A program made the position numbers and the translations under genes. The notes below the pieces were generated by a model. That model worked only from the letters and a program-made list of their open reading frames with translations. It was not told the origin of the DNA and ran no database searches. From positions 1-59,264 of the IMG/VR virus record IMGVR_UViG_3300036832_000931: 59,264 bases of DNA, one strand, 5' to 3'. Positions 1,253-59,264 of this stretch are shown one piece after another. Source of the DNA: a virus. Taxonomy: Duplodnaviria; Caudoviricetes. Positions within the stretch are counted from its first letter, which is position 1; every line of letters begins with the position of its first letter.

Positions 1253-1319
1253 TGTGTCCCCTCCCTTGTTGTTTCACCGCTACTGCGCGGGAACCCTTAC
1301 TCACATAAATTGTAGATGC

Positions 1320-2957: not shown

Positions 2958-3446
2958 GGTTCCTGCGTACTACGGCAGTGAAACTTATTCGGGTTCTCGC
3001 GTATCAGCGATGAAACCTTCGTCGACAATGTCACGGTTCCTGCGGTTGAGCAGTGAAACTCAGCGCGCTCCCGGCTCCTGCGTATCAGCAGTGAGACCCT
3101 TCGCTTTTGTTCATCGGTTCTCGCGTACCCAGCGATGAAACTTTTGAAACTGGATGGTTCCTGCGTGTTAGCAGTGAAACGCTTCCTGGGGCGGCGAACG
3201 GTTCTCGCGTATTCAGCGATGAAACTCGCAAGCTTAACTCCCCGGCTCCCGCGTACCGGCGGTGAGACCCTTCGTCGCTTATGGTTCCTGCGTTTGAGCG
3301 GTGAAACTGATGCCGACGCGAAATGTTCTACTCGGTTCCTGCGTGTTAGCAGTGAAACCCTGATCCAGTCAAAATGTCGGTTCTCGCGTACTTAGCGCTG
3401 AAACTGATGCGCGCCTCGATGGCTCCTGCGTTACCAGCAGTGAGAC
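2958..3446 (+). CRISPR. Compact CRISPR-like array: 12 truncated (25-27 nt) repeat hairpins with 7-26 nt spacers
   Basis: Copies start at 2958, 2992, 3035, 3073, 3116, 3156, 3200, 3244, 3283, 3334, 3379 and 3421. All match the 3' part of the 37-nt repeat beside the cas gene. Confidence 0.85.
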
Positions 3447-9726: not shown

Positions 9727-9986
9727 AATACTTACGCGCAAGCTCTGACGGCATGTGGATGTTGTTCTTCCCCGTCCTATCGCTCTTCTTCGTGATCTTC
9801 ATCCTCGTTATTACCGATGATGACGGCGTCTCGCGCAAACAGGAGGTTAAAGCGTGCGACATTGCCGTGCAGCAGCTGATGACCACTCATGATCTCGTCG
9901 AACTCCAGCGCGATGAATGGCTGATACATCACTTGCGTTGTTGGGTCACTCGGCGCGCAGTGCCGATACTGGTTCCTGCGAAATGA
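9723..9986 (+). CDS. Small membrane protein
   Basis: N-terminal hydrophobic helix; ATGA overlap with the upstream gene; stop inside repeat copy 9971-9996. Confidence 0.5.
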   Translation: MKYLRASSDGMWMLFFPVLSLFFVIFILVITDDDGVSRKQEVKACDIAVQQLMTTHDLVELQRDEWLIHHLRCWVTRRAVPILVPAK

Positions 9987-10025
9987 GCAGTGAAACGAAT
10001 AAGCGGTTAATAAGGGAATACTCTA

Positions 10026-11444
10026 ATGAGAAAAAGGAAAAGAGACTGGCCGATGAGGGTGATCAAGATTCGTGCGTATCCGAGAGTGATCCCGGATAGC
10101 GTCTGGGCGATCGCGAAGGACCAGAGAAAGCTGTGGAATGATTTGACCAGTATGTGGAAGGCGACCGCTGATCTGGCGGCCAACCTGCCTGAGCAGAAAA
10201 AAGAAATGTGGAAACAGTTTGAGGACTGGGCGGCAGCGGCCGTTAAACTGTCCGGCCTCGACTGGGTTAATGGACCGGATATTTTAGATAGATTGCGTGC
10301 TACCACGCGCTCGCGCAAACAGGCTCCACGCTTTCATGGTGCGCTGCAAAGGGTGTCGATCGGGCACAGATATACCGGCGGCGGGAAGGCTCTGGAGGAG
10401 GTGATTGATCCAGGCGTTCAGGTCAGACGATTCGCCTTGGTCTCATCGAAGGACTGGATCGCCTCGCAGCGCTCACAGATCGGTCAGCATTCGCCCAAGC
10501 GCAAGCATTGGCGCGGCCGCTTCCAGGTCGGTGAAGAGACGATTGAGTACTCGTTGGCGCTTCATCGCGAGCTGCCTGAGCGCGCGATTTTGAAGCGTGT
10601 GGCATGGCTGGGTGAGCGCAGTGGCCCGACATGGTTTTGGTACTTGGCGCTCACGGTGGAAGAAGAGCCGGTACAAGGTTCCTGCGTGACGACGAGCAGT
10701 GAAACTACAAGCTCTGCCGCTATCGACCTGGGCTGGCGGTTATTTGCCGATGGGACCAAACAGGACCGGCTGCGGGTCGGCATGCTGGCTGATTCCGAGG
10801 CGCGCATGATCGAGCTGCGGTTGCCGCTGCGCCTGCGGCCTAACCGCGTTCAGGAACAGCGCGGGCTGGATACCATCGCACAGTGGCAGGCCGAGGCTTC
10901 CAAGCTCGACAAGAGCTCTGACGAGTACCGCATGCTCACCCGCGAGATGAGACAGTTACGCTTTCGCTTAATCCAAAGGCGCAGATGGTACTACCTCAAT
11001 CTCGCCAACTGGCTCTGTCAGCGATACAAGCGGATTGCGCTCGAGGATATGAGCATCAAGGATCTGCATCGTAAGCCGGATGATCCCGCCTTGCAGAATA
11101 GCGCGCAGTATCGCAATTACGCGGCGATTGGGGAATTCCGTGCCCTGCTCCTGCGCACCGCCACCAAATACGGCTGCGAGGTCATTCCCGTCGATTCGAT
11201 TGACTCGACCAGGACGTGCTGGGAATGCGGAGCCAAGGCCGAGGCGAGTGGGCACCTGACGCTTAAATGCGAGAACGGGCACGAATGGGATCAGGATAAA
11301 AACGCCGCTCGTAATCTGTTCTCGCAACTGGAGGGGACTTTCGGGCAGACACACAGTTTGCGAAAAATAACGACTACTGGTAAGTGGAAACGATTGGAGT
11401 TGCCGGAGTCTATTGGAGCGGTTGCAGTTGAGGTTCCTGCGTGA
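10026..11444 (+). CDS. cas12: Compact type V CRISPR effector (TnpB/Cas12 superfamily, Cas12m/V-U1-like)
   Basis: RuvC-I AAIDLGWR, RuvC-II IALEDM, Zn finger CWEC...CENGH, RuvC-III WDQDKNAARNL. LHRELP..A.LK...W.L.LTV and LRVG motifs resemble Cas12m. Directly abuts a CRISPR array. Confidence 0.85.
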   Translation: MRKRKRDWPMRVIKIRAYPRVIPDSVWAIAKDQRKLWNDLTSMWKATADLAANLPEQKKEMWKQFEDWAAAAVKLSGLDWVNGPDILDRLRATTRSRKQAPRFHGALQRVSIGHRYTGGGKALEEVIDPGVQVRRFALVSSKDWIASQRSQIGQHSPKRKHWRGRFQVGEETIEYSLALHRELPERAILKRVAWLGERSGPTWFWYLALTVEEEPVQGSCVTTSSETTSSAAIDLGWRLFADGTKQDRLRVGMLADSEARMIELRLPLRLRPNRVQEQRGLDTIAQWQAEASKLDKSSDEYRMLTREMRQLRFRLIQRRRWYYLNLANWLCQRYKRIALEDMSIKDLHRKPDDPALQNSAQYRNYAAIGEFRALLLRTATKYGCEVIPVDSIDSTRTCWECGAKAEASGHLTLKCENGHEWDQDKNAARNLFSQLEGTFGQTHSLRKITTTGKWKRLELPESIGAVAVEVPA

Positions 11445-12003
11445 TGAGCAGTGAAACCGATAAGCAGAGCATCGCAGGCAACCGGTTCTCGCGGTTGCAG
11501 TGGAGGTTCCTGCGTGACGAGCAGTGAAACTTGGGTACGGCGACTTCGATGAAGTACAAATCAAAGGTTCCTGCGTTACCAGCAGTGAAACAGGCCATCA
11601 GGAGTTCCTCGATTTTCTCGCAGCCCTGAGTTGCAGTAGAGGTTCCTGCGTAATGAGCAGTGAAACTACTAATCCTGCTCAGTGCGGCCTGCGAATGAGC
11701 ATTGAGGTTCCCGCGTACGGGCGGTGAAACAATGAACAAACAGTTTCGATCAAGATTGTCATCACAGTTGGTGGTTCCTGCGTAATGAGCAGTGAAACAG
11801 CTGGAGATCACGCAGCTTGAGGTTCGTGCGTAAGGGCGCTGAAACTAGAAGCACAAGATGGTTCGCGCGTAAGGGCGCTGAAACTCATACACGGTCGAAT
11901 CGGTTCCCGCGTACTGGCGGTGAAACAGAGAGCCGTTTCAGGGTTCCCGCGTGTGGGCGGTGAAACAGGAGAAATGAGGTTCCTGCGGATACAGCAGTGA
12001 AAC
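11421..12003 (+). CRISPR. CRISPR array, 11 repeats; full repeat GTTGCAGTNGAGGTTCCTGCGTRAYGAGCAGTGAAAC (37 nt), shortening distally
   Basis: Full repeats at 11421-11457, 11494-11530 and 11630-11666; core-only or degenerate copies at 11566, 11706, 11773, 11821, 11860, 11902, 11942 and 11978. First spacers are 35-39 nt. Confidence 0.9.
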
Positions 12004-15913: not shown

Positions 15914-17099
15914 TAACTCGCCCCTCCCCAGCGTCTGGTATAGTTTCATCCACCGGTTCCTGCGTGGAAGCAGTGAAACGTTCTGGCTCATGCTCATCAC
16001 GCGCAGCGCTGTAGATGTATCGAGCGTAGTACTTGAACACGGTCTCAAGCCGATCGCCCATCAGCTCCGCGACCTGACCAGGGGTTAGCCCTTGCTCGAA
16101 ACAGTCCACGGCGAACGAATGCCTCATGACGTTCGGAGCTCGATACTTCAGCCCCGTCGCCTTGAACATCGGCCGCCAGTTGCGGTTGGTCCAGTTCTGC
16201 AGATTGAGACGTGCCCCTCGACGACCACGGAAGATCAGGCCCGTTTCATCGATCGGGATGTCTAACCGGCTGAGCACGGCCATGAGCCGTGCCGCGTTTC
16301 TCGGGGGCAGCTTTACAGTACGATGTGCGCGTTTCGTCTTGGTTCCTCGTATCGTAGCCCACTTCCCAGTGTCAGGAAGATCTTCCCGCAGAAGACCCAG
16401 CACCTCCGACGGTCGAGGCCCCAGGGCAAAGCCCAGTTCCACGATCGACCAGTCTTGGACGGTCTTGGCTACCGCCGACAGCTTCAACTGATCGGCCGGT
16501 GGAATGGGATCGATCTCCTCAGTCGCGCCTGAGGGCGGGTTCTCGATAAACTTCATCGGGTTTTTGCTGATCACCTCATCCGCTTCAAGCATCAAGAAGA
16601 TCTTCCGCAGCCGCTGAATGAACTGAGCTATCAGCCGATCCGGCTTGCCGGGGCGGTCTGACCGCCGCTCTACCCCATCGATCGCAGCCTGGATGTCCTT
16701 ACGCATAATCTCGCGCACGTCCATCTCCCCCAGCGCGGTGCCGTCGAGAAAGCGGCTGAACAAATACTCAACCCCCTTCGTCGTCTTTGCGCTTCTATAC
16801 TTCTGGGTATTCAGCCACTGCCGAGCTACGACGCGAAGAACCATAACGGGAGCAGCCGCCGCTTCCGCCTCTGCCACAGCCTTCAGCGCTTTGGCCGCCA
16901 TCGAATTGGGGAAGAATTCTTCAAGTGTGAACGTACCCTCCTTGATCGCATGGGTGACCCGCCGCTCAAGCGACGCGTACTGGCGACGATTCTCTTTGGT
17001 TGCACGCACGCCCTTGCCGACGCTGGGCCGATAAACCTTGCCCTGCCAGCGGAACTCCAGACACAGCCGGTTACGATTGCCTTTGATAAGTGATGCCAT
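15891..17099 (-). CDS. int: Tyrosine recombinase/integrase with N-terminal arm-binding domain
   Basis: GPRPSEVLGL (catalytic R), TKT, MRHSFA, MGD, YARY (catalytic Y). Confidence 0.9.
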   Translation of the reverse strand: MASLIKGNRNRLCLEFRWQGKVYRPSVGKGVRATKENRRQYASLERRVTHAIKEGTFTLEEFFPNSMAAKALKAVAEAEAAAAPVMVLRVVARQWLNTQKYRSAKTTKGVEYLFSRFLDGTALGEMDVREIMRKDIQAAIDGVERRSDRPGKPDRLIAQFIQRLRKIFLMLEADEVISKNPMKFIENPPSGATEEIDPIPPADQLKLSAVAKTVQDWSIVELGFALGPRPSEVLGLLREDLPDTGKWATIRGTKTKRAHRTVKLPPRNAARLMAVLSRLDIPIDETGLIFRGRRGARLNLQNWTNRNWRPMFKATGLKYRAPNVMRHSFAVDCFEQGLTPGQVAELMGDRLETVFKYYARYIYSAARDEHEPERFTASTQEPVDETIPDAGEGRVNDDRLDV

Positions 17100-17175
17100 C
17101 CTCTTCTTCTCCTTGCGGTTATTTCTCTATTTTCTAGTGGTCTGAGCTGAGGTTTCACTGCTAATACGCAGGAAC

Positions 17176-17424
17176 CTACTTCCACTCGCCGGTCAAATAC
17201 TCGATCGGGCGTCCGGACAGTTCCGACCACTGCTTTAAATATGGACAATTCAGCGGCAACACCCGATGCTTCTGCAGGCGGTAGAGCACCCGCCAGTGGT
17301 GGCCGATGGCCTTGGCGACCTGCAGCATCGACGTAAAGTTGTTGCGTTTTCTGATCTGCGAGATCGCATCGAGCACGCGGTTGGTGGCGATCGTCTCCTC
17401 GCCGGGGATGTACTGATATTCCAC
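17176..17424 (-). CDS. Small DNA-binding-like protein (candidate repressor)
   Basis: HTH-like LQVAKAIGHHWRVLYRL...IEYLTG; divergent from the RecT operon and upstream of int. Confidence 0.45.
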   Translation of the reverse strand: MEYQYIPGEETIATNRVLDAISQIRKRNNFTSMLQVAKAIGHHWRVLYRLQKHRVLPLNCPYLKQWSELSGRPIEYLTGEWK

Positions 17425-17606: not shown

Positions 17607-18008
17607 TTGACCACTTCGAGTGAGCGTGCTAGTTCTCCAAAACCGACGCAATCGCGTCAGCCTGAACGACAGACTTCGTGCATGGTTCCTGCGTTAAGAG
17701 CAGCGAAACTGGAGGGGAAAGTGTCTGTATACAGTCAACTTACGATCGTAGACGCCAAGCCGCGCATCATCCAGCAGTGCAGAGAGCAGGTCGTCAGGGT
17801 GATGGCGCAGCTGAAGTACTGCCATAACCTGCCGCTCATCATCAGAGACCCGTCGTTCCCCTTCGAGGATGTCCCGTGGCACGTAGAGGGACTTACCCCC
17901 GACCAGTTCGGGCGCATCGTGCCGCTCCTGATCGAAATACAACTCATCATGAAACGCGAAGACAAAGCGGAGGAAACCAATGGCCGACAATGCCCTGACG
18001 CTGCTTGA
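17607..18008 (+). CDS. Hypothetical protein (true start probably GTG ~17721)
   Basis: GGAGGGG RBS immediately after repeat copy 17684-17709; overlaps the RecT start. Confidence 0.45.
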   Translation: MTTSSERASSPKPTQSRQPERQTSCMVPALRAAKLEGKVSVYSQLTIVDAKPRIIQQCREQVVRVMAQLKYCHNLPLIIRDPSFPFEDVPWHVEGLTPDQFGRIVPLLIEIQLIMKREDKAEETNGRQCPDAA

Positions 18009-20626: not shown

Positions 20627-20866
20627 ATGAAAATCCCATCAGAGGAACTCGATATTATCGCGACCACCGTCGCTGAGATCGAACAGATCCTAAAAGGAAA
20701 AGGGTCCGCTATGCAGGGGGCAATCCTGGGCGATCTGCTCGCGACATGGCTGCACGGTCATAGCGACGTAGATGATGATCCAGTCAAGACAGCAGAAGTG
20801 CGCGATGAGCTACTCGCGGTACATATCAATTATGTCAAGCTGCTGGTGGCAGCGAACGACCTATAG
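20627..20866 (+). CDS. Hypothetical protein
   Basis: 79 aa; QGAILGDLLATWL.GH; TAG overlaps a repeat copy. Confidence 0.6.
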   Translation: MKIPSEELDIIATTVAEIEQILKGKGSAMQGAILGDLLATWLHGHSDVDDDPVKTAEVRDELLAVHINYVKLLVAANDL

Positions 20867-20906
20867 GTTCCTGCGTGTGAGCAGTGAAACCAGAGCATGT
20901 CGGTTC

Positions 20907-21821
20907 ATGAGCATCAAAGTCTTCTACAACGACAACGACCTGTATTGCGTGGAATGGTTAAACAATCTAATCGAGGCAGGGCACCTGCCGGAAGGAACCG
21001 TTGATGGCCGCAGCATCGAAGACCTTGAGCCCGCCGACCTTGACAGATATACGCACGCGCATTTCTTCTGCGGACTTGGAGGCTGGCCCTACGCCCTCGA
21101 GCTTACCGGGTGGCCACCAGACCAGCCTGTTTGGACCGGCAGCCCACCCTGTCAGCCCTTCAGCGCCGCCGGCAAAAGACAAGGAGACGCTGATAGCCGG
21201 GACTTGTGGTCGGCTTGGTTCCGGCTCATCCAAGAGTGTCGCCCTGCAACAATCTTTGGTGAACAGGTTGATGGAGCGATTGGGTGGGGATGGTGGGATC
21301 GAGTATGCGCTGACCTGGAAGGCGAAGATTACGCCTGCGCGGCGGCGCTATTGCCAGCTTGCAGCGTCGGCGCGCCCCATCTCCGCAACCGGCTTTTCTG
21401 GGTCGCAACCCTTGACGGGCTGGCCGACGCCAAACCCCCCGACCGGTGGTCGTTCAATCTTAAACATCGACCAGATGGACCCGACGGGCCGGACGGTGGA
21501 CGGCCGGAAACATACGGCGAGTCTGGAACACGCGGTGAAATTCACGGGCTGGGCAACACCGACCTCGCGCGACCACAAGGACGGAGCCTCGGACCTGAGC
21601 AACGTTCCGATCAACTGTCTGCTTGGGCGGCAAGCACGCCTATCTGGTGCAGTGATGGAAAGTGGCGGCGGGTACCGCTTGAACCACGGTTTCAGCCTTT
21701 GGCTGATGGGCTACCCGGTCGACGAGTGGCTGTCCTGCGTGCCGCGGGGAACGCCATCGTCTCCCAAGTCGCGGCAGAGTTCGTAAGAGCATTTCTCGAG
21801 GTTCCTGCATGTGAGCAGTGA
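20907..21821 (+). CDS. C5 cytosine DNA methyltransferase (alpha-like chain)
   Basis: FCGLGG (motif I), GSPPCQPFS (IV), GEQV (VI), H.R.R (VIII), GNAIV (X). Confidence 0.9.
   Translation: MSIKVFYNDNDLYCVEWLNNLIEAGHLPEGTVDGRSIEDLEPADLDRYTHAHFFCGLGGWPYALELTGWPPDQPVWTGSPPCQPFSAAGKRQGDADSRDLWSAWFRLIQECRPATIFGEQVDGAIGWGWWDRVCADLEGEDYACAAALLPACSVGAPHLRNRLFWVATLDGLADAKPPDRWSFNLKHRPDGPDGPDGGRPETYGESGTRGEIHGLGNTDLARPQGRSLGPEQRSDQLSAWAASTPIWCSDGKWRRVPLEPRFQPLADGLPGRRVAVLRAAGNAIVSQVAAEFVRAFLEVPACEQ
21001..21786 (+). CDS. Overlapping alternative-frame ORF, candidate MTase beta subunit (start uncertain)
   Basis: 261 codons open inside the MTase gene; WPTP/WATP repeats and LNHGFSLWLMGYP resembling motif IX. 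Confidence 0.55.
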   Translation: MMAAASKTLSPPTLTDIRTRISSADLEAGPTPSSLPGGHQTSLFGPAAHPVSPSAPPAKDKETLIAGTCGRLGSGSSKSVALQQSLVNRLMERLGGDGGIEYALTWKAKITPARRRYCQLAASARPISATGFSGSQPLTGWPTPNPPTGGRSILNIDQMDPTGRTVDGRKHTASLEHAVKFTGWATPTSRDHKDGASDLSNVPINCLLGRQARLSGAVMESGGGYRLNHGFSLWLMGYPVDEWLSCVPRGTPSSPKSRQSS

Positions 21822-21926
21822 AACATCAAGCTGAGCACTGCGCCTTAAGGTTTTTTTCTTAAAGCGCATGTACAATCGAACAGGTTCCTGCGTACCAGCA
21901 GTGAAACGTTATGCAGTTGCTCTATC

Positions 21927-33294: not shown

Positions 33295-33369
33295 GTCATT
33301 TGCTCTCTTATCGTTTCCCCGCTAACGTGCAGCGATGGTTCCCGCGTAGAGGCGGTGAAACATTTTTGC

Positions 33370-36532: not shown

Positions 36533-36813
36533 AGGTGGTCCTCCGGAAATCGTTAAATTCCACCGTTTCACCGCTGTTACGCGGGAACCGTCGTGCTATG
36601 TGCCTCGATGAATTTAACGCCCAGAAGAGGAACCCCGAGGCTCCGAACTGGCGTCGTCCGGTCGGGTTACTCGCGACTTTAACGCGACCTGTGCGAGTGG
36701 CTACCTTTGCGAAGAGTAGCAGGTCTAAATTTTTCTATAGACGCAACTAACTACTAAGTCAATATATCTTGACTGTCAGTCATCCCACGTTTCACCGCCG
36801 TAAACGCGGGAAC

Positions 36814-37074
36814 CTAACGCATGGTCTTGCCGCGCCCTGACATATGCCTGCCTGTGTCATGCTGATACTTCTTATCCGAAGCGTAGCCGCGCTTTGTTTC
36901 AGTACGCGAGTGCGTTTTGACCTTAGCTGGGAGTCCTTCAGTCTTGGTGGCTGCATAGTCATGCAGTTGCTTGTGCGACATCTTCGTCACACCAGCATTT
37001 TCGGGCGATACCGCTTCAGGGTCGTGCTCCGCAATCGCCATTAGTTTTTGTTGTTTTTTCGATACGGCAGGCAT
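36814..37074 (-). CDS. DUF3008-like small basic protein
   Basis: MPAVSKKQQKLMAIA...MSHKQLHDYAATK..GLP. Confidence 0.65.
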   Translation of the reverse strand: MPAVSKKQQKLMAIAEHDPEAVSPENAGVTKMSHKQLHDYAATKTEGLPAKVKTHSRTETKRGYASDKKYQHDTGRHMSGRGKTMR

Positions 37075-38187: not shown

Positions 38188-38255
38188 GTTTCACCGCTGT
38201 TACGCGGGAACCATGTCGTCTTCTTACAGTTTCACTGCTTTATACGCAGGAACCT

Positions 38256-39512: not shown

Positions 39513-39587
39513 CCCCGTTTTCGCCCAACGAGAACTGATTTACTTTTCATGACATCCACGAGTTTCACTGCCGTATACGCAGGAACC

Positions 39588-40058: not shown

Positions 40059-40570
40059 TAGCTTAGTTCCTCTTTCAATTGCCTCACCGCTGATACGCGG
40101 GAGTCTTCCTCGAAGCGGACGTGATGATGAAGGCTCCAGAAACCGGTCGTTTCCAGTGCCTGCTGATGACCGTCACCGGGGCGCAGGATCGGCCCGAAGA
40201 CCTCAGCCAATATGTAACGCGCCTGTTCGAAGTGCTCCGGTGACCATGAGCAGGTAGCCAACCACCCTTCTTCCGGCACCTCAAGCTTATATTTGCCTTG
40301 CTTCGCAGGACCGTCATCGACGGGAGTGTGACCGAGCAGTTCGAGCACAGCGGCTGAGCCGTGCCACACCGGTCTTTTCTTGTTCCACGTCTCAAGCATG
40401 AAGATGAGATGCCACGGTCCCATCTTCCAACGATATTCATCGACTATCGCCATGTTGCGATCGTACGCGGGGAAGCGCTGTGCAATCGCACGCTGCTTGG
40501 CGCACTTCTTCTTGAAGGACTCGATGTCCCACTTAGCTATAAAGTCGAGGCCAGTAACCATAATGCTCAA
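40058..40570 (-). CDS. Hypothetical protein
   Basis: 170 aa; TAATG coupling to the next gene. Confidence 0.6.
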   Translation of the reverse strand: MSIMVTGLDFIAKWDIESFKKKCAKQRAIAQRFPAYDRNMAIVDEYRWKMGPWHLIFMLETWNKKRPVWHGSAAVLELLGHTPVDDGPAKQGKYKLEVPEEGWLATCSWSPEHFEQARYILAEVFGPILRPGDGHQQALETTGFWSLHHHVRFEEDSRVSAVRQLKEELS

Positions 40571-40582
40571 ATCGGAAGTGTT

Positions 40583-40792
40583 TCACCGCTCTAAACGCGG
40601 GAACCCCAGAAACGGCGGACCAAATACACCGAGGAACTGTAACAAAATGACCACCAGAACCAGCGCCATAATCACGCGAATGACTACTCTAACTGGTGGT
40701 GGCAGTGGTATCTGTCCCAACAACCAGTCGAGGAGATAGAACACCAACCCGAGAATTACGAGATAAAAGATTAACGATATGAGGCTTATCAT
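40583..40792 (-). CDS. Two-helix membrane protein (Thivi_2564-like, candidate holin)
   Basis: LISLIFYLVILGLVFYLLDWLL..IPLPPP.RVVI.VI..LV.V.ILL. Confidence 0.65.
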   Translation of the reverse strand: MISLISLIFYLVILGLVFYLLDWLLGQIPLPPPVRVVIRVIMALVLVVILLQFLGVFGPPFLGFPRLER

Positions 40793-41280
40793 CGCGGTTG
40801 CTCGTCGACTACTTGCGCCAACCCCATCGCTTCAGAGAGCGACGATGCGCCTGCTGCTGCATGACCATTAGTCACTGGTGGAGCGAACATTTCCGGCTGC
40901 GTCGGCGCTGCCAATGCCGGAGCCGGTGCGAGTGAACGATCCATACGATCCTCAGCTTCGATCTGGTTGGCCAAGGGCTGATGCAGACGACAGTACCAGC
41001 TACCGGTGCGGTTGAACTGGCTGGGCTTGGTCTTGTAGATGCCCTGTCGCCCGCAATGGACACAGGGATTGGTCACAACTGCTGATGCTGCTGGAGTCTG
41101 ATGCGTTTCACCGCCGATACGCGGGAACCCGGCTGTATTTAGACCAGCTGCCACCAGCAGCGTTCTGACCTCGTCCAGTTTACGGGCGCAGACCATAAGC
41201 GCCGCAGCCTTCATCGCTTCGCTGAAACCCTGCTCATAGATCTGTTTCGCCGAGCGCTGGATTTCCATATCCAGCGACAT
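40789..41280 (-). CDS. Hypothetical protein with CxxC...CxxH motif
   Basis: Probable start MSLDMEIQ; CVHC...WYCRLH. Confidence 0.5.
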   Translation of the reverse strand: MSLDMEIQRSAKQIYEQGFSEAMKAAALMVCARKLDEVRTLLVAAGLNTAGFPRIGGETHQTPAASAVVTNPCVHCGRQGIYKTKPSQFNRTGSWYCRLHQPLANQIEAEDRMDRSLAPAPALAAPTQPEMFAPPVTNGHAAAGASSLSEAMGLAQVVDEQPR

Positions 41281-41353
41281 TTGCCGGCGTCGGCGACGGC
41301 GCTTCGGCTTATCCACGCGGTCTAAACGTTTCACTGCTGTATACGCAGGAACC

Positions 41354-42064
41354 TCACCGGGGTCTAAACGGGTCGTGGTACGTGCGCGCCTGCTGCTGAA
41401 ATTGTTTTCTTCCATGATCCGCCAGTTCACTTCGTAAGATGTAGTCGTCCTCTTCGCACATGCCGCCGTGTTCCCAAGTGGAGAGCGGGTCGCGCGTCCA
41501 CATTGGGTTGCGGCAGTTGTGGCACCTCGTTGCAATCCACGGAGCAGTCAGTGGCGTACCGGGTCGTTCACTGGCTATTCGCCACCGCCGCCGATCAATC
41601 GGAGCTGGGTGCATCGGGGGGCCGTCGATAATCGAGACGAGCGGCGTTTCACTGCTCTTATACGCAGGAACCTCTGCAGTCGTGCCACTGCTTCCATCGC
41701 TAAGTTTCACTGCTGTTTGCGCAGGAACCTCTTGTCCCATCGTCCTGATGCCATGCCCTCGTGCCCACTTCTGCCATGTACGCCTGCCACAGCCGCATGC
41801 ACACAAATTCGGTGGTTCTGATGGTGGCGGCGCTGAGCGTTTCAGTTTCACTGCTTCATCCGCGTCATCCGCAGGAACCGCTTCTTCCGGGGGCTTAACT
41901 TTGCTCCATAGTGCGCTCAGCTTTTCGATGTTCGCCTGCTGCTGTGCCGCACGTTCGGCCTCCTGCTTTTCCAGATACGGCGCACGATGACCGGAACGAA
42001 AGCCGCCAGCGTCTTGCACCATTTCGCCGCAGCCGCAGGCACATTCGAACTTCGCGTAAGCCAC
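41354..42064 (-). CDS. Protein with two CACGCG Zn-binding motifs, carrying three in-frame repeat copies
   Basis: ECACGCG...F.SGH and LCACGCG...WARGH; AVPA...AVKL, EVPAQTAVKL and EVPAYKSSET are repeat-encoded. Confidence 0.6.
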   Translation of the reverse strand: MAYAKFECACGCGEMVQDAGGFRSGHRAPYLEKQEAERAAQQQANIEKLSALWSKVKPPEEAVPADDADEAVKLKRSAPPPSEPPNLCACGCGRRTWQKWARGHGIRTMGQEVPAQTAVKLSDGSSGTTAEVPAYKSSETPLVSIIDGPPMHPAPIDRRRWRIASERPGTPLTAPWIATRCHNCRNPMWTRDPLSTWEHGGMCEEDDYILRSELADHGRKQFQQQARTYHDPFRPR

Positions 42065-44296: not shown

Positions 44297-47200
44297 GCCA
44301 CCGCGGTTTCGCCCATGCTTTGCAGTTGTTTCATGCGTTTAGTGAGATTCGCCTGAGTGGTTTTGTTCTTCACTTGCGGCAGTTCTTGTCTGAGGCGCGT
44401 CTGCAATACCTGCATCAGCATCGGCCTTTCTTCAGGTGAGGCCAGTTCCGTTGCCATCATCGCATCGGTCAGCGGCATCCCCGCCAGTACATCGGTGGCT
44501 TTAGGGTCGTTGTGGAATTGAAGGGTCTTCCTGACTTCATCGACCGAGTGACGGCCGCTGGCCAGATCACGCGACACATCGACGGGAGAAGTTGGCTTGC
44601 TGACATTCATCGCGAGCTTCTGCGCCGAGTCGGCAGAGGAGCGGCTGGGAGCGACGTTCTCGGAGCGCATACGATCGGCAGCGCTGACGCCGGGGCCGGG
44701 ACTTGGACTCGGCGTCGGAAATAGGGGGGTCGGCGTTCCCCAAATCTCAGGGTGCCGGTTACCTTTCACCGCCTCTTCGCGGGAACCTGATGTCGCTGAC
44801 GCAGCGTTCACCGAGTATTTCTCAACGGCTCTGCTCAAGCTCGCTCCGCGCTCGTACTCGTCGAGGATTTCCTGATCGACTTGCGTCTTTGCCAAACCCT
44901 CGGCAATGATGCTGCGGCCAATCGCCCTAGTCAGTGCGTTCGGACGGGAGAGATAAGGCGTGGGATTGCGTAGAATGTGTTCAACATCCTGCGCGAGAAT
45001 CGGATCCTTCGCCATCGCTTCACGAAGACCCCTATACATCATTTCACCTGGAACCAGCCCCGTGAACGCACCAAAACCGGTGAGCGCGAAACCGGAAAAC
45101 CGGCTCATCATTGGCATCGCGATATCCACCAGTGCCCAGATCCCCGCTCGATTCTTCCAACGTGTAAAGAACTGCCGCTCTTTATAGCCCCTCTGGAAGT
45201 TCTGGACGGCGGCACCTGATTCGAGAGCTTCCTGCCGCGTCATGGGTTCCGGGCTACCACCACCACCGCCACTAGGGTCCAGCCGCCGTTGAAGATTATC
45301 GCGAGTATCCGGTAACCCTTGTACACCCCCGGGAGGGGCTAACCTCGGCTCTTCTCTCGCCGCCGCAGCTTGTTCACGCGCAGTGGTCTGCTGCGGGTAT
45401 GCTGCCTCCGCTTGCTGTCTGGCTAAATCAGGGTTCTGGATTTCCGGTGGTTGCTGTTTGAGTTGGTTTTCAACGGTATCAGGGATAGGTGGCTGCTGCT
45501 GCAGCGCATGGGTTTGTTCCGCACCCGCGATAAACTCAGATGCCTTTCTGGCAGCCAGTTCCGCATTGCTTCCAACACGCTCTCTGATCAGTACATCAGG
45601 GGGTGCCTCTTCTGCCGAGCGAATCCGGAATTTAAGTTGCCTCTCCAGAGCCGGACCTAATAGATGCGCGTCTCTGCGGGCTAGCTTGACGGTGATGTCG
45701 GCCAATCGGCGATTCCGGTCACCAACGTCTTGCATGACATCGTTCAGAAAGCTCTGCTTCAGTCTGGGATTCGCCTCGATCGCGGCGGCCGCAGCCTTGA
45801 TATTCTTATCGTTACGAATCCAAGAGTCTTTGTTGCGGAGGTCGCTAGTCTCGGGGAATAACTCGTCGAGTATTTTCTGGTCGACATTATTGATCCATTG
45901 CGGACCATTTTCCTTCACATTAGCAGCGATCTGATCGCGCAGTTCCATGCGCGTACCGAAACCATCGTCAGCAGCGAGCTTGGAATGCTGGATCAGTTCG
46001 AGCGCTGCCTGCGGGTGTTGAGTCAGCAGTACGTTTGAGGCATCGACCGGCCGTTCAAACTGGTTCAGCCGTCGCTCGAGCGCAGGGGTGAAGTTGTTGC
46101 GGTGGTTGAAGTACTCCTCGTTGAGCTCCTGCAACCTTTGAAGATTGGCTTCTCCTGCTCGCTCGGGGGGAAGACTATCAACGTGAGCCTTGATGTTATC
46201 GTCAATGCCGTCGTTAATTGCCTCAATCGCTACCTGATTGGTGGGATCTCTCTCCCTGAGGATGAGTCCTTTAGCCTCGCGCTGTACCTTGAGCAGATCA
46301 CGGATACTAGCTGGCGGATGTGCTGCGTGAGCCTGCTCGATCTCCCATCGCGCGGGACTTAAAGCATAACGCCGCTCCAGAATCTTTGCGTGGGCCTGCT
46401 CCGGTGTCTTGGGTTCAAACCTATGCCCCACCATCGAATCGTACTGAGCCTGTTCAGCGGGGTCATATGCCCTAGTGCGGTCAACGGCAGCTTCCTTTTC
46501 GGCTTGTGCAAGGAAATTTCTGACTTCCTGCGGGGATTTACCCTGAGCAGCTAGGACGTCTGCATCAGTCGGCGCAACTAGACTTCTTACCCTGTCGAAA
46601 AAGCCTCTGACCTTAGGATTTACCGGTCGATTCTTCCACTCAGGAGCGATGACGTTACCCTGCTCGTCCCGCTGCTCATTCTGCTCCTCATCCATCTTCC
46701 TGATGAGTGGATCATAATTGGTCGGTCGTTCGTCTTTGATCGTGTCAGGGATGGCTTGATCGCGCTCGCTACGCCAGTTCTCGCGATAAGCCGTTACCGG
46801 CGCTTTCGTGGCACGTCGGAAAATTCGGTCGCGCAGGCTCCGGAGAGGCCCAGACGGCATGGTGTTATCAAAGACCGGTTTGCCCTTCCTGTCCTGATTA
46901 GCCTCATCAACCTCCTGCTGAATAGCGTCTTTGGCTGCCTCCTTGCGATATTTTGTGGCGTGCTTATCCCTGGCCGCCTGCTCATCGGTTTTGATCTGTT
47001 CTTCTTCTGCAGCCGCTGCCTGCCTTTGGGCATGTTCAGCTTCTGCCTTACCGAACGTTACCTTTGCCGCATCTTCTCTCTGCTTATCAAGCGCCGTTTG
47101 CCGTTCGTCCGTTGCTTTCTCGACGAACTTAGTACGTGCCGCCTCGGCTTTGTCCTGTGCTCTTTGTCCGGCTCCTACCGCTTTGTCCTGTTGTGATTCA

Positions 47201-47991
47201 GTTTCTCGTCGCGCCGCCTCATCGGCACTTTGAGTCGCTTTGGTGAAGCGGTCACGGGCTTTCGCTGAAGCTGCCTCCATCTCAGGCCTCAAGGTGCCTT
47301 CGCCACCAAACATACTTTCAGCTTTCGGGACGCCATAGGCTTCGATTCCCATTGGCACACCCAAACCCGCCACCAAGCCTGCCCCTTCAGCAACCATTGG
47401 ATGATTCGGGAATAGCGCGTGAGCCCCTTCCTGAGCTAGTTGCGAACCCTTTACAGAGGCGACCACTGAGCCCGCACCAAGAGCTTTCTGCGCGATCTTG
47501 GGTCCGGCCTTTTCGACTGCCTGCAGTGTGCCTTCATGTCGTAAACCAAGGTTTTCCAACCATCGGCGGGCAGTGGGACCAGTCATAGCTTCCAACACTG
47601 ACTTGGCAGCTGGTTTTACCACTGCCTCTCCTGCTTCTCCTAACTCCCCTACCTCTCCACCGGGAATCAGTAACGAGGCTAAGGCCGTGTAATAGGGATG
47701 CCGATCCATCCAGTCGGTGACTTTCTTGCCCTGCCGATTCACATAATCGTAGGCTGTGCCCACGGGCGAATTGCGGACAGCATTGAACTGAAACGGGTCC
47801 ACGTTCATTAAGTACGCGAGCGGTGCCGGTATAAACTGGTCCTGCGTCTGATGCTTAAACTCGGCTTCTTCCGGAGCAGTGAACCCTGATCGCGGCGGTT
47901 TTGCTGCTGGTTTCACCGCTGTTTCGCGGGAACCTGAATCACTCGCCGGCGGAGCATAAGGGACGGCGTCATCGGGTACTGGAATTGGCAT
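44293..47991 (-). CDS. Large internal virion/DNA ejection protein
   Basis: 1232 aa, helical and A/E/R/Q-rich; last gene of the ejection-like cluster. Confidence 0.6.
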   Translation of the reverse strand: MPIPVPDDAVPYAPPASDSGSRETAVKPAAKPPRSGFTAPEEAEFKHQTQDQFIPAPLAYLMNVDPFQFNAVRNSPVGTAYDYVNRQGKKVTDWMDRHPYYTALASLLIPGGEVGELGEAGEAVVKPAAKSVLEAMTGPTARRWLENLGLRHEGTLQAVEKAGPKIAQKALGAGSVVASVKGSQLAQEGAHALFPNHPMVAEGAGLVAGLGVPMGIEAYGVPKAESMFGGEGTLRPEMEAASAKARDRFTKATQSADEAARRETESQQDKAVGAGQRAQDKAEAARTKFVEKATDERQTALDKQREDAAKVTFGKAEAEHAQRQAAAAEEEQIKTDEQAARDKHATKYRKEAAKDAIQQEVDEANQDRKGKPVFDNTMPSGPLRSLRDRIFRRATKAPVTAYRENWRSERDQAIPDTIKDERPTNYDPLIRKMDEEQNEQRDEQGNVIAPEWKNRPVNPKVRGFFDRVRSLVAPTDADVLAAQGKSPQEVRNFLAQAEKEAAVDRTRAYDPAEQAQYDSMVGHRFEPKTPEQAHAKILERRYALSPARWEIEQAHAAHPPASIRDLLKVQREAKGLILRERDPTNQVAIEAINDGIDDNIKAHVDSLPPERAGEANLQRLQELNEEYFNHRNNFTPALERRLNQFERPVDASNVLLTQHPQAALELIQHSKLAADDGFGTRMELRDQIAANVKENGPQWINNVDQKILDELFPETSDLRNKDSWIRNDKNIKAAAAAIEANPRLKQSFLNDVMQDVGDRNRRLADITVKLARRDAHLLGPALERQLKFRIRSAEEAPPDVLIRERVGSNAELAARKASEFIAGAEQTHALQQQPPIPDTVENQLKQQPPEIQNPDLARQQAEAAYPQQTTAREQAAAAREEPRLAPPGGVQGLPDTRDNLQRRLDPSGGGGGSPEPMTRQEALESGAAVQNFQRGYKERQFFTRWKNRAGIWALVDIAMPMMSRFSGFALTGFGAFTGLVPGEMMYRGLREAMAKDPILAQDVEHILRNPTPYLSRPNALTRAIGRSIIAEGLAKTQVDQEILDEYERGASLSRAVEKYSVNAASATSGSREEAVKGNRHPEIWGTPTPLFPTPSPSPGPGVSAADRMRSENVAPSRSSADSAQKLAMNVSKPTSPVDVSRDLASGRHSVDEVRKTLQFHNDPKATDVLAGMPLTDAMMATELASPEERPMLMQVLQTRLRQELPQVKNKTTQANLTKRMKQLQSMGETAVA

Positions 47992-51717: not shown

Positions 51718-51759
51718 ATTAATTTACTGCTTTCAGTTTCACTGCAATTACGCAGGAAC

Positions 51760-52530
51760 CTAGTTTTGCCGCGCGGCTATCCGGTCTTGCCGCGCCTGTT
51801 GTCTCGCTGCTACTTTCTCTTGTCGCGCTTCTTTTCGCGCTGCTACCTTCTCTTGCCTTTGCTCTTGCCTTGCCTGTCTCAGTTCTTGGCGTAGCTCCTT
51901 CGGGGTCTGCTGAGTTGTCGGGCCACCCTGAACGGGAGCAGGCGGGGGTGCAGGAGCCGGTGGTGGAGGTGCAGCGGCAGTTCCGGCAGCTCCTGGCGAA
52001 AACATCCCACCGAAGCTGCTGGGACTAGGGGTACCAGCATTCATACCCCCGCCCATTACGGGATTGGCAGGATTAGGATTCGTCGTCAGACCGCTGGTGA
52101 AGCCTCCCAGCGGATTTGACCCACCATAAAGACCGGCTAATTGAGATGCCGCAGCCGGTGACGTTGCACCGGCAAACGCCGCAGGATTCTGCGCTGCCAT
52201 GTTTTGCAGAAAGGGACTACCCGAGATCATCGGGGAGAACAGCGAATAGGCACTCCCGCTAGGATCGATCTGCTGGAGCATCGAGGCTGCGGCCTGCCCG
52301 CCACCTCCGCCGGCTCCACCACCAGTCGTGGTGACACCGGTATTGGCACCACCGGTCGGAAAGCTTTCGCCCGGTGTGTTGAACCAACTGGACGGGACGG
52401 TGCTGCCGGGAAAGACATAGCCCATCAGGGAGGAGAGATAAGCCTTGGCCGGCTCACGCTCCCACTGCGGCAGCTTTTGGTTGCTCTGCGTGGTGGTCTG
52501 TTGTGACCCGCTACCGCCGCCTCCGCTCAT
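51760..52530 (-). CDS. Gly-rich internal virion/ejection protein
   Basis: MSGGGGSGSQQTTTQ...LP.W..P...YL; basic C-terminal ARQE repeats. Confidence 0.6.
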   Translation of the reverse strand: MSGGGGSGSQQTTTQSNQKLPQWEREPAKAYLSSLMGYVFPGSTVPSSWFNTPGESFPTGGANTGVTTTGGGAGGGGGQAAASMLQQIDPSGSAYSLFSPMISGSPFLQNMAAQNPAAFAGATSPAAASQLAGLYGGSNPLGGFTSGLTTNPNPANPVMGGGMNAGTPSPSSFGGMFSPGAAGTAAAPPPPAPAPPPAPVQGGPTTQQTPKELRQELRQARQEQRQEKVAARKEARQEKVAARQQARQDRIAARQN

Positions 52531-52588
52531 AGTTCGCTCTCCTTATGATCACGATATATTCAGTTTCACCGCCAGTACGCGGGAACCT

Positions 52589-53701: not shown

Positions 53702-53723
53702 CGCTCATACGCGGGAACCTTGT

Positions 53724-54807: not shown

Positions 54808-54834
54808 AAGTTTCACTGCCGATACGCAGGAACC

Positions 54835-55494: not shown

Positions 55495-55697
55495 AAAACC
55501 ACCTCTACTTCATCTTATAGTCACATGCTCGATCTCCCGATAATTCTCACCCAAGATAAACCGCATACAGTCACAGCCCCTTTCCCGGCATACCCCTTCC
55601 TCGTCCTGATGCAGCATCCGAGTGTGACCGCAGAGGCAGAACTGCTGATGCCATACGCTGGCACAATGCGGTCTGCGTGAGATTCGTTTCACTGCCA

Positions 55698-55967
55698 TTA
55701 CGCAGGAACCCCAAATAACTCCCCCTGGCGAGCGGGTTCGCATTGATGCTTGCGAATAATGCGAACAATGTGCGGGCGCATGGCATCCGGATACACGGCG
55801 AAACAGTGCGTACCCTTACCGTTGGTCTTCTCGCGAAGCTCCTTGGGTGGCAGTTCGCCGTGGATGGAGAACCACAGATCCCGTGTCTCTTCACCGACCG
55901 CCCAGGAGAGATTGGGAGTGATGTCCACCCTCTCTTCACGCATGACATCAATCACTGTGATGCTCAT
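55698..55967 (-). CDS. Hypothetical phage protein
   Basis: ITVIDVMRE...WAVG...GELPPK.LREKT.G.GTHCFAVYP; ends GVPA* inside a repeat copy. Confidence 0.6.
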   Translation of the reverse strand: MSITVIDVMREERVDITPNLSWAVGEETRDLWFSIHGELPPKELREKTNGKGTHCFAVYPDAMRPHIVRIIRKHQCEPARQGELFGVPA

Positions 55968-56116
55968 GGTCTTCCCCGTTCCGTTTCACTGCTCTAAACG
56001 CAGGAACCTTACGGTTCGTACGTAACGGCGGTGAAACAAGAGAAGTTTCACTGCTAGTACGCAGGAACCGCCGCCTCATCGTTTCACCGCCCGTACGCGG
56101 GAACCCGTACTGCCGC

Positions 56117-56536: not shown

Positions 56537-56627
56537 GATTTACCTTTTTCGCTGAACCTCAGTGTTTCACTGCCACTACGCAGGAACCTTGCTTTGGATT
56601 ATAGTTTCACTGCCCAAACGCAGGAAC

Positions 56628-58274: not shown

Positions 58275-58364
58275 TTACCTGATTCTCTTCAAGCGTTTCA
58301 CTGCCGGTTACGCAGGAACCTAACCTTCACTCATCGCTTCGTTTCACTGCCGATACGCAGGAAC

Positions 58365-58901: not shown

Positions 58902-59264
58902 ACGATGCCCGACCTTGTTTCATCGCCAGTTTACGCGAGAACCTCGAGATTACGTCCGTGTTTCATCGCTAATACGCGAGAACCTTTGTTTCGAAACAAA
59001 CTCGGCGTTTCACTGCCTGTACGCAGGAACCTTTAACTTAAGCGCGCCCGTCGGGTTTGTTTCGAAACGTGGGGGTGGATACGTCGTCGCCGGATCTCCC
59101 GACGCACCATTCCCCGGCGGGCGCAAGCTTTATCATCTCATATTGATCCACCATCAGTGAGCATTATAGCCTCCCCAATGTTTCACTGCCGATACGCAGG
59201 AACCTAGCCGTTCGTCAGAAGTTTCACCGCCCTGACGCGGGAACCCTAGCTATGTAGGATGTTG

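What the first reader, a model, noticed from the sequence alone, without database searches (positions are those of the whole stretch)
2992..3446. Compensatory base changes show the repeat is selected as a structure
Seen: the inner stem varies in concert as CTGC/GCAG, CCGC/GCGG, TCGC/GCGA (2992, 3116, 3200, 58917, 58960) and GCGC/GCGC (11860). The outer stem varies as TTC/GAA versus CTC/GAG (3073, 3244, 3421). A bulged T between the stems is nearly invariant and the loop is variable (longest at 41845). T-G pairs occur in the GGTTC...GAAAC reading (3283, 11821). Inference: a single-stranded, most likely RNA, hairpin is recognised rather than a dsDNA operator. The sequence diversity may also limit recombination among the copies.
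Basis: seen in the sequence. Interest (0 to 1): 0.72.

Follow-up and report, generated by a model that had tools for sequence, protein, structure and literature searches.

The report
Cas12m RNA handles scattered in phage
The covarying hairpin is the RNA handle gripped by this phage's own small CRISPR protein (Cas12m), and the phage carries 72 copies of it, most of them between or inside its own genes, which hints that the protein also acts on the phage's own messages.

Summary
A sequence-only model finds 72 copies of a 25-35 nt hairpin in the 59-kb contig. Three of its seven base pairs vary, and almost always on both sides together.

The hairpin is the structured 3' part of a type V-M CRISPR repeat. 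ORF 10026-11444 is a compact Cas12m by sequence profile and by predicted fold. Its last codons run into a repeat-spacer array that carries the same hairpin. Repeats next to 14 related Cas12m genes fold the same way with different stem letters.

The flagged stretch, 2958-3446, is a second array. It holds 12 stripped-down handles with gaps of 7-26 nt and looks like a triplicated four-handle block.

So an RNA hairpin read by a protein is well supported. A dsDNA operator, a REP element and a terminator are not.

What the roughly 49 copies outside the two arrays do is inferred, not shown. My best guess is that Cas12m binds or cuts the phage's own transcripts there.

Earlier notes of this scan (AI notes, unchecked by me) report the same layout in other Cas12m phages. 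My four paper searches found no description of it in print.

The parts
2958..3446 (+). Second array, far from the cas gene: 12 minimal handles with gaps of 7, 18, 13, 18, 14, 19, 18, 14, 26, 20 and 16 nt. It looks like three copies of a four-handle block.
2958..2984 (+). handle, common inner stem, 8-nt loop
2992..3016 (+). handle, third inner-stem variant
3035..3059 (+). handle, common inner stem
3073..3097 (+). handle, outer-stem variant (C-G instead of T-A)
3116..3141 (+). handle, third inner-stem variant
3156..3180 (+). handle, common inner stem
3200..3225 (+). handle, third inner-stem variant
3244..3268 (+). handle, outer-stem variant combined with the second inner-stem variant
3283..3307 (+). 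handle with a T-G wobble in the inner stem
3334..3358 (+). handle, common inner stem
3379..3404 (+). handle with one mismatched inner pair (T opposite C)
3421..3446 (+). handle, outer-stem variant
10026..11444 (+). Compact Cas12m gene (472 aa, D-E-D RuvC residues present). Its stop codon lies in the loop of the first repeat.
9971..9996 (+). handle 29 nt upstream of the cas12m start codon; the stop codon of ORF 9723-9986 lies inside it
10677..10705 (+). handle in frame inside cas12m, in a linker that varies among homologues, just before RuvC-I
11418..12003 (+). Array next to cas12m with 11 handles. The first units are 37-40 nt repeats, leaving 35-39 nt between the long repeats (35-49 nt between the handles). 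The distal units are bare handles with gaps of 22, 14, 17, 15 and 11 nt.
1271..1295 (-). solitary handle, 18 nt before the next start codon
2674..2700 (-). solitary handle; the stop of ORF 2688-2957 lies in its loop
9341..9365 (-). solitary handle, antisense to the flanking ORFs
15955..15979 (+). solitary handle after a + strand ORF; overlaps the 3' end of the integrase ORF on the other strand
17152..17176 (-). solitary handle 52 nt upstream of the integrase start
17684..17709 (+). solitary handle; the only copy with C in place of the bulged T
20866..20890 (+). solitary handle near the 5' end of ORF 20772-21821
21800..21824 (+). solitary handle over the stop of ORF 20772-21821
21883..21907 (+). 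solitary handle 19 nt before the next ORF
33337..33361 (+). solitary handle, antisense, between two - strand ORFs
36565..36589 (-). solitary handle
36789..36814 (-). handle whose first base is the last base of the upstream stop codon
37089..37114 (-). handle whose first base is the last base of the upstream stop codon
37391..37416 (-). handle inside ORF 37114-38187, fourth inner-stem variant
38188..38212 (-). handle of a pair (16-nt gap), before a start codon
38229..38254 (-). handle of a pair, 1 nt after the upstream stop
39562..39587 (-). handle directly after the upstream stop
40081..40105 (-). diverged handle inside ORF 40058-40570, with the outer-stem variant and changed flanks
40580..40605 (-). 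solitary handle
41105..41129 (-). solitary handle
41328..41353 (-). handle directly after the stop of ORF 41354-42064
41646..41672 (-). handle in frame inside ORF 41354-42064
41704..41729 (-). handle in frame inside ORF 41354-42064
41845..41879 (-). handle in frame inside ORF 41354-42064; longest loop (16 nt)
44763..44787 (-). handle inside the 1232-aa ORF; last base changed
47910..47934 (-). handle near the 5' end of the 1232-aa ORF
49518..49544 (-). handle inside the 941-aa ORF, with one extra base in the 3' outer arm
50120..50145 (-). handle inside the 941-aa ORF, outer-stem variant
50490..50515 (-). handle inside the 941-aa ORF, with one extra base in the 3' outer arm
51736..51760 (-). handle overlapping the upstream stop by 1 nt; 18 nt before the next start
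52563..52587 (-). handle 1 nt after the upstream stop
53695..53719 (-). handle 4 nt after the upstream stop
54810..54834 (-). handle directly after the upstream stop
55686..55710 (-). solitary handle inside or ahead of ORF 55571-55951
55983..56008 (-). handle of a cluster, 15 nt before a start codon
56013..56037 (+). antisense copy with 2 of 4 inner pairs broken
56045..56069 (-). handle of a cluster
56081..56105 (-). handle of a cluster, 11 nt after the upstream stop
56564..56588 (-). handle of a pair (15-nt gap)
56604..56628 (-). handle overlapping the stop of the large terminase ORF by 1 nt
58295..58320 (-). handle 20 nt before the large terminase start
58341..58365 (-). handle overlapping the upstream stop by 1 nt
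58917..58943 (-). handle, third inner-stem variant, 15 nt before a start codon
58960..58984 (-). handle, third inner-stem variant
59007..59031 (-). handle of a cluster
59180..59204 (-). handle of a pair (16-nt gap)
59221..59245 (-). handle of a pair, near the contig end

Best explanation
The repeat is the structured 3' part (the 'handle') of a type V-M CRISPR repeat. It is read as RNA by the compact Cas12m encoded at 10026-11444.

Layout, 5' to 3': two conserved unpaired bases; a 3-bp outer stem; a 4-bp inner stem; a free loop of 6-8 nt; a T bulged between the two stems on the 3' side; two conserved bases; then the guide. Pairing is what selection keeps, so the stems change on both sides together.

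The stretch 2958-3446 is a second array of 12 bare handles. They are spaced by about one guide length, and the array seems to have grown by triplication of a four-handle block.

Shown here: what the hairpin is, its covariation, and where the copies lie.

Inferred from published Cas12m biochemistry: any transcript carrying a handle is bound by Cas12m and cut just upstream of the handle and about 17-18 nt downstream. That would chop the phage's long messages at gene junctions and inside a few genes, and would give short RNAs made of a handle plus the next gene's leader. Whether this tunes or silences phage gene expression or arms Cas12m with self-derived guides is open.
For: (1) ORF 10026-11444 matches Pfam Cas12f1-like_TNB. 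A profile of it and 21 homologues hits a PDB chain named Cas12m at E 1.5e-58 over nearly its full length, and other Cas12m chains at 2.5e-34 and 5.6e-14. Its AlphaFold model (mean pLDDT 84.8) is closest to Cas12m2 and GoCas12m structures (E 6e-18 to 3e-14; TM-score on the query 0.59-0.63).

(2) The gene's last codons run into an array whose first units are 37-40 nt repeats ending in this hairpin. In relatives the tblastn match also runs into the first repeat, and the last eight residues are conserved in most of the 22 aligned proteins.

(3) The passages I read of PMC10442227 describe the Cas12m2 scaffold as follows: a non-canonical G-A pair at position -2, a 6-bp stem reaching position -3, a flipped-out base just 5' of it, and one base before the guide. 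The copies here have the same order of parts.

(4) Covariation within the window is given. All 18 repeats taken from 14 related loci, plus 5 window variants, fold to the same shape with different stem letters. Fifteen of these 23 were folded again against shuffles and gave z-scores from -0.4 to -4.3.

(5) 69 of 72 copies are in sense orientation. The only copy with two broken pairs is antisense.

(6) 23 of 31 gaps between neighbouring copies are 26 nt or less, with a median of 16. Published Cas12m guides are about 17 nt long, and PmCas12m cuts at guide position 17-18 (passages of PMC10442227, and of bioRxiv 10.64898/2026.03.26.714355).

(7) Another viral contig, L131, encodes a Cas12m (E 2.6e-45). 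It has a short-gap handle array just upstream of the gene and short gaps at the far end of its main array.
Against: - No RNA data exist for this phage, so binding and cutting are not shown.
- The bare handles lack the 5' 11-12 nt of the full repeat. In GoCas12m about 30 nt of repeat form a triplex plus pseudoknot (passage of PMC11013384), so bare handles may bind weakly or not at all.
- The window's Cas12m has no residues over about 60 alignment columns where the other 21 homologues have 25-60 residues. It may be impaired.
- Within the window the independent compensatory events are few. Six fully paired haplotypes imply at least 4 double changes, and gene conversion between copies could mimic them.
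- Some 'spacers' of 2958-3446 resemble each other between blocks, so they are not independent acquisitions.
- A phage with a 55% identical portal has no such hairpins in 21 kb of its structural module. The handles are therefore not needed to express these genes.
- The contig is rated 63% complete.
Confidence: 0.78

Rival explanations
1. RNA decoys (RNA anti-CRISPR, Racr-like). The handles are transcribed in bulk to soak up a host Cas12m and load it with harmless phage-derived guides. They would protect the phage rather than regulate it.
For: Solitary repeat units in phages are known to work this way (abstract and passages of PMC10651486). The copies are in sense orientation and numerous. Cas12m acts by stoichiometric DNA binding (passages of PMC11013384), so titration could work.
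Against: The contig carries its own cas12m with a matching array, whereas the passage I read describes viral SRUs as often not associated with cas genes. That paper found 2,103 SRUs across its viral collections, far fewer per genome than the roughly 49 non-array copies on this one contig. The host and its CRISPR type are unknown.
Confidence: 0.1
2. Selfishly or neutrally spreading repeat debris. Array repeats were copied around the genome by recombination, persist where they do no harm, and have no function outside the main array.
For: A related structural module has none. Copies sit in tolerated places such as gene junctions and low-complexity linkers. The block triplication at 2958-3446 shows duplication. 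The phage has RecT-like and exonuclease-like genes.
Against: Neutral debris should decay. Yet 70 of 72 copies keep every pair while the loops differ (57 kinds), and the unpaired flanks and the bulge are kept in 70-71 of 72. Orientation is 69 of 72 sense. Gaps cluster at guide length.
Confidence: 0.08
3. A single-stranded DNA hairpin of the REP or IS200/IS605 kind, recognised by a Y1 (HUH) transposase and spread as DNA.
For: It is a small imperfect palindrome with conserved flanks, mostly between genes and sometimes clustered. The nearby protein belongs to the TnpB lineage.
Against: There is no Y1 transposase match in the window, while the same search rings in 6 of 14 control genomes. The hairpin is the repeat of a CRISPR-type array joined to a Cas12m. 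Clustered copies are all direct, not alternating. T-G wobbles occur on the sense strand.
Confidence: 0.02
4. A double-stranded operator for a dimeric repressor, or a plain terminator or stability hairpin with no link to Cas12m.
For: Dyad symmetry, and a position at gene ends.
Against: Both arms change together while the spacer between them varies from 6 to 16 nt and only one arm carries a bulge. A duplex operator would keep its letters and its spacing. No run of T follows the stem, and the terminator scan finds 0 sites in 2400-4200. The conserved unpaired flanks point to a specific protein partner.
Confidence: 0.02

Closest known systems
Type V-M CRISPR repeat / Cas12m crRNA scaffold (MmCas12m2, GoCas12m, MsCas12m, PmCas12m)
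   Same: The effector is homologous by sequence and fold. The array abuts the gene. The stem-loop sits at the 3' end of the repeat with a G-A closing pair and one base before the guide. The gaps are about as long as the published guides.
   Different: The protein is shorter: 472 aa against about 577-614 for the solved chains. Like most of its aligned homologues it has no counterpart of the long N-terminal insertion that three of the 22 carry; I take that insertion to be the 'Roof' helix of GoCas12m, which is my inference, not a test. It also has a shortened helical insert. Most copies are bare 25-27 nt handles without the 5' third of the repeat. About 49 copies lie outside arrays, many of them inside transcripts of phage genes.
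Standalone CRISPR repeat-like elements and mini-arrays in cas loci (cr-like RNAs; PMC10120712, passages read)
   Same: A repeat copy sits just upstream of the effector gene (9971-9996). The paper reports the same for about a third to a half of V-A loci.
   Different: The published elements lie inside cas loci and act through partial matches to promoters. Here the copies are spread over the whole phage genome, and the 16 nt that follow them find second matches in the window no more often than random 16-mers do (34 of 68 against 90 of 200).
Solitary repeat units / RNA anti-CRISPRs (PMC10651486, abstract and passages read)
   Same: Repeat mimics carried by a phage and transcribed as RNA.
   Different: The cognate cas gene is on the same genome. 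The copy number is dozens rather than one or a few. Many copies lie inside coding sequence.
TnpB guide RNA (omega/reRNA) overlapping the 3' end of its gene
   Same: The RNA scaffold starts inside the last codons of the nuclease gene, here and in relatives.
   Different: The scaffold is short, about 25-37 nt, not about 150 nt. It is repeated as an array, and no transposon ends or TnpA were found.
REP elements / BIMEs of bacterial chromosomes
   Same: Short intergenic imperfect palindromes in many copies, often just after stop codons.
   Different: No RAYT-type gene was found. The copies are direct and co-oriented with transcription. They are identical to a CRISPR repeat and sit in a phage.

Membership tests
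Type V-M CRISPR-Cas (Cas12m) | Effector homologous to Cas12m (TnpB-derived RuvC and zinc-ribbon core with the Cas12m REC and WED parts) | tested here: met
   Profile against PDB: Cas12m chains at 1.5e-58, 2.5e-34 and 5.6e-14. The top four Foldseek hits are Cas12m structures.
Type V-M CRISPR-Cas (Cas12m) | Repeat-spacer array next to the effector gene | tested here: met
   The units at 11418-11798 are 37-40 nt repeats with 35-39 nt between them, and the first one overlaps the stop codon. The distal units depart from this.
Type V-M CRISPR-Cas (Cas12m) | [quoted passage not shown] | tested here: met
   Tested at the level of sequence and predicted fold only, compared with the description in PMC10442227.
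Type V-M CRISPR-Cas (Cas12m) | The effector processes its own pre-crRNA; no tracrRNA | not testable with these tools
   No RNA run is listed for this DNA.
Type V-M CRISPR-Cas (Cas12m) | PAM-dependent dsDNA binding without cleavage | not testable with these tools
   The D-E-D residues are present. Published D-E-D orthologues still do not cut (passage of PMC11013384).
Canonical CRISPR array (applied to 2958-3446) | Full-length repeats separated by unique spacers of near-constant length | tested here: not met
   The units are bare 25-27 nt handles with gaps of 7-26 nt. The gaps are partly alike between three blocks.
Solitary repeat units / RNA anti-CRISPR | A repeat mimic on a mobile element that lacks the cognate cas genes, aimed at a host system of the same subtype | tested here: not met
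   The cognate cas12m is on the same contig. The host is unknown.
REP / RAYT or IS200/IS605 ends | An associated Y1 (HUH) transposase | tested here: not met
   PF01797 has no match in the window, while the control search rings in 6 of 14 genomes. The contig is rated 63% complete.
Intrinsic terminator | A GC-rich stem followed by a run of T | tested here: not met
   There are 0 terminator-like sites in 2400-4200. The stem is followed by the conserved two bases and then varied sequence.
Rfam families | A match to any curated RNA family | tested here: not met
   There is no match at E <= 1 in 11380-12060. At gathering scores the whole window matches only two twister ribozymes.

The most novel reading that the evidence does not exclude
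This temperate phage has turned a CRISPR effector into a genome-wide reader of its own messages. Handles placed right after stop codons, ahead of ribosome-binding sites and inside a few structural genes would make Cas12m cut or cap the late transcripts. That could keep them silent in the lysogen or set their relative amounts. The released pieces, each a handle plus a leader, could double as guides against related phages that lack the handle at that place. The bare-handle arrays with gaps of guide length, seen again in an unrelated Cas12m virus (L131), would then be a stripped-down working form of a CRISPR array rather than decay.
Probability: 0.35. Interest if true: 0.85.

Novelty: new variant of a known kind. 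Interest (0 to 1): 0.6.

Why it matters
On its own, the covariation is ordinary: CRISPR repeats of type V are known to fold, and Cas12m is known to hold such a stem-loop.

What is unusual is the use. One 59-kb phage carries 72 handles. About 49 lie outside arrays, mostly at gene junctions on the sense strand, and it also has arrays reduced to a handle plus a gap of guide length.

If Cas12m acts on these transcripts, this would be a natural case of a DNA-binding CRISPR effector recruited for RNA-level control of a virus's own genes. The bare 25-nt handle and short guides would also mark the smallest RNA that this compact (472 aa) Cas12m needs, which interests tool builders.

It can be tested directly with one protein, a few RNAs and end-mapping.

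Tried and rejected
Nucleotide relatives. Searches of the phage collection found nothing for 36000-56000 (near mode) or 2600-3900 (distant mode).

Hairpin pattern in collections. The pattern found nothing in other viral contigs. In genome contigs it gave 120 stretches, 119 of them single hits at about chance level. The one double hit, L016, lies in a repeated coding domain and is unrelated.

tRNAs: none.

Promoter and terminator scans around both arrays gave nothing above the shuffles.

Self-targets. The 16 nt after each handle have a second match with up to 3 mismatches in 34 of 68 cases. Random 16-mers do so in 90 of 200 cases. So there is no sign of self-targeting elsewhere in the window.

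Protospacers. The region holding the long spacers (11458-11820) has no match in the phage or plasmid collections at E <= 1.

Structural covariance model. On 100 related loci it found only L144 and its duplicate L151; it is too specific for orthologues. RNAalifold on the orthologue alignment gave no consensus structure, because the bulge shifts the register between groups. I therefore folded each repeat on its own.

Mapping in-frame handles as insertions failed. The proteins of the related phage L223 are too diverged in those parts.

PHROGs named few of the 30 proteins scanned, and none is an RNA-binding candidate other than Cas12m.

Sequencing runs: no RNA holder listed.

Cas1 and Y1 transposase were not found in the window.

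Papers. I made four searches (and the listing in 34), with passages read. None of the passages I read mentions Cas12m repeats scattered over a phage genome. Supplements were closed and may hold repeat tables that I could not see.
Full report
What is there. The stretch 2958-3446 holds 12 direct copies of a 25-27 nt hairpin. A scan for the hairpin shape, and then a profile of sequence alone with no pairing information, find the same element all over the contig. There are 72 matches at E <= 0.012 out of 98 listed up to E = 10, with a clear score gap after them. Thirty-two are on the + strand and 40 on the - strand. The window is a whole viral record of 59,264 bases, rated linear and 63% complete. 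It carries portal, large terminase, tail fibre, integrase and RecT-like genes.

The observation. Over the 72 copies:
- The third outer pair is T-A 67 times and C-G 5 times, and never mismatched.
- The first inner pair is C-G 62, T-A 5, G-C 3, and mismatched twice.
- The second inner pair is T-A 39, C-G 30, T-G 3.
- The other four pairs are constant except for one base in one copy.
- The bulged T is kept in 71 copies, the two 5' bases in 71 and the two 3' bases in 70.
- The loop has 57 different sequences and lengths of 6 (42 copies), 7 (24), 8 (4), 10 (1) and 16 (1).

On the first 68 copies, 99.8% of 427 cells pair. None of 500 shuffles reaches that value or the covariation score, and sliding the partners by 1-3 columns gives 36-54%. 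Naive Fisher tests give 3e-17 and 7e-8.

How far relatedness weakens this. These copies are relatives of each other, so the counts are not independent. There are six fully paired haplotypes, two with a wobble and two with a mismatch. That needs at least four double changes. The outer-stem variant occurs on two inner-stem backgrounds.

The 12 copies of 2958-3446 align as three blocks of four handles, with some likeness in the gaps. At each of the four positions the blocks differ by paired changes. If the blocks are true duplicates, the changes came after the duplication, or copies were converted by other copies. Either way only paired states have survived.

Independent support comes from other contigs. 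All 18 repeats taken from 14 loci that encode relatives of the neighbouring protein (24-49% identity), plus 5 window variants, fold to the same shape: two free bases, a 7-9 bp stem, two free bases. About a dozen different inner stems occur among them. Fifteen of the 23 were folded again against shuffles and gave z-scores from -0.4 to -4.3. In the closest relatives the T is bulged as it is here. In more distant ones it faces a T, or pairs with an A or a G.

What it is. ORF 10026-11444 (472 aa) has the TnpB/Cas12 nuclease core with D-E-D residues. A profile of it and 21 homologues matches a solved chain named Cas12m at E 1.5e-58 over almost its whole length, and further Cas12m chains at 2.5e-34 and 5.6e-14. 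Its model (mean pLDDT 84.8) is closest to Cas12m2 and GoCas12m.

The gene's stop codon lies in the loop of the first of 11 handles at 11432-12003. The first units there are 37-40 nt repeats with 35-39 nt between them. In relatives too the gene runs into the first repeat, and the last eight residues are conserved in most of the family.

The passages I read of the Cas12m2 structure paper describe a scaffold with a non-canonical G-A pair at -2, a stem reaching -3, a flipped-out base 5' of it and one base before the guide (PMC10442227). This is the order of parts seen here, and it explains why the unpaired flanks are conserved.

No Rfam family matches the array. Neither Cas1 nor a Y1 transposase is found in the window.

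Where the other copies lie. Outside the two arrays there are about 49 copies.
- By my ORF map, 69 of the 72 are in the sense orientation of their neighbours. Of the three antisense copies, one is the only copy with two broken pairs.
- In the packaging and head region (36.5-59.2 kb) ten handles start from 1 nt before to 4 nt after the end of the upstream stop codon.
- Several ORFs, cas12m included, end inside a handle.
- The next start codon often follows within 15-32 nt.
- A dozen or more copies lie in frame inside ORFs: three in ORF 41354-42064, three in the 941-aa ORF, and one in a variable linker of cas12m itself.
- Where copies are neighbours, 23 of 31 gaps are 26 nt or less, with a median of 16. 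That is close to the 17-bp guide-target duplex of Cas12m2 and to the roughly 17-nt guide of PmCas12m, which is cut at guide position 17-18.

Comparison with relatives.
- In 19 related loci the handle occurs only in the array after the gene. The exceptions are L154, where one copy lies about 37 nt before the gene start as it does here, and L152, where one degenerate copy lies inside the gene.
- A wider automatic look took in 43 loci, and 33 of them have an array. It found copies away from the gene-proximal array in five distinct contigs (L122/L205, L130, L131, L141, L217). In four further loci the hits only continue a long array.
- L131 encodes a Cas12m (E 2.6e-45). It has eight handles with a period of 37-55 nt ending about 45 nt before the gene, and short gaps at the far end of its main array. 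Short-gap arrays of bare handles are therefore not peculiar to this contig.
- A phage with a 55% identical portal (L223) has no copy in 21 kb (best E 2.3 with filters off) and no other hairpin family.

Mechanism. Shown here: the identity of the hairpin, its covariation and its placement. The rest is inferred from the literature. Cas12m proteins bind the repeat-derived scaffold and process pre-crRNA themselves, independently of RuvC. D-E-D orthologues still bind DNA rather than cut it.

It follows that a phage message carrying a handle should be bound and cut around it whenever Cas12m is present. What the phage gains from that is open. The options I see are control of its late messages, self-derived guides against rivals, or titration of a host Cas12m. 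I give them about 0.35, within that 0.35, and 0.1 respectively.

One further point is inference only. This protein has a shortened helical insert, and in GoCas12m the insert helps read the far end of the guide duplex. That could go with short guides.

Rivals. A duplex operator, a terminator and a REP-type DNA hairpin each fail a feature that I could test; see the membership table. Neutral debris is hard to square with 70 of 72 fully paired copies that carry 57 different loops.

Novelty and limits. A folded type V repeat is known, and V-M systems in prophages are mentioned in a review (PMC11656645, passage). A 2026 preprint calls its 610-aa protein the first phage Cas12m; in the passages I read it describes one ordinary array.

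None of my four paper searches, nor the passages I read, turned up scattered Cas12m handles or bare-handle arrays. Supplements were closed.

Earlier notes of this same scan report the layout in several other Cas12m phages. They are unchecked AI notes that I did not test, and I do not count them as evidence.

There are no expression data, the host is unknown, and the genome is incomplete.

Noticed in passing
window 4383-4440 and 4725-4782 (+): Two type-P5 twister ribozymes above Rfam's gathering score (46.7 and 56.8 bits) flank a 78-codon ORF (4486-4722). They lie in the early region, which has no handles. A second kind of RNA-cutting element in the same phage.
   Followed up: no
window 10026-11444 (+), protein P0001: This Cas12m has no residues over about 60 alignment columns between RuvC-I and RuvC-II, where all 21 aligned homologues have 25-60 residues. 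Like most of its subfamily, it also lacks the long N-terminal insertion that three homologues carry.
   Followed up: partly
L150, L153, L159, L160 (just after the Cas12m-like gene): These relatives have a single repeat and no array, and the sequence that follows it is nearly the same in different contigs. This may be a fixed natural guide, that is, a domesticated RNA-guided regulator.
   Followed up: no
L131 8776-9148 and 11283-11560: An unrelated viral contig with a 636-aa Cas12m has a short-gap handle array ending about 45 nt before the gene, and short gaps at the far end of its main array.
   Followed up: partly
L217 14153, 15987, 19986; L141 6387 and 8859-9130; L122 17677: Further Cas12m-like loci have solitary handles or a second array several kb from the gene. 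In L217 the stems differ by paired changes.
   Followed up: partly
window 2674-2700, 9971-9996, 11432-11457, 21800-21824 and ten junctions in 36.7-58.4 kb: Handles often supply or abut the stop codon of the upstream ORF. Read in one frame, the 5' arm gives the same three residues that end Cas12m.
   Followed up: partly
window 27115-27480: A 192-nt tandem duplication (1.9 copies, 78% matches) inside the 818-aa tail-fibre ORF.
   Followed up: no
L223 (21 kb of a related phage; portal 55% identical): Its structural genes are packed with overlaps or tiny gaps and carry no hairpin family, unlike the handle-filled junctions of the window.
   Followed up: partly
window 3447-4028: About 580 nt without a convincing ORF follow the second array. 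They hold a 28-nt imperfect inverted repeat (3602-3629 / 3699-3726) and short direct repeats. Function unknown.
   Followed up: no
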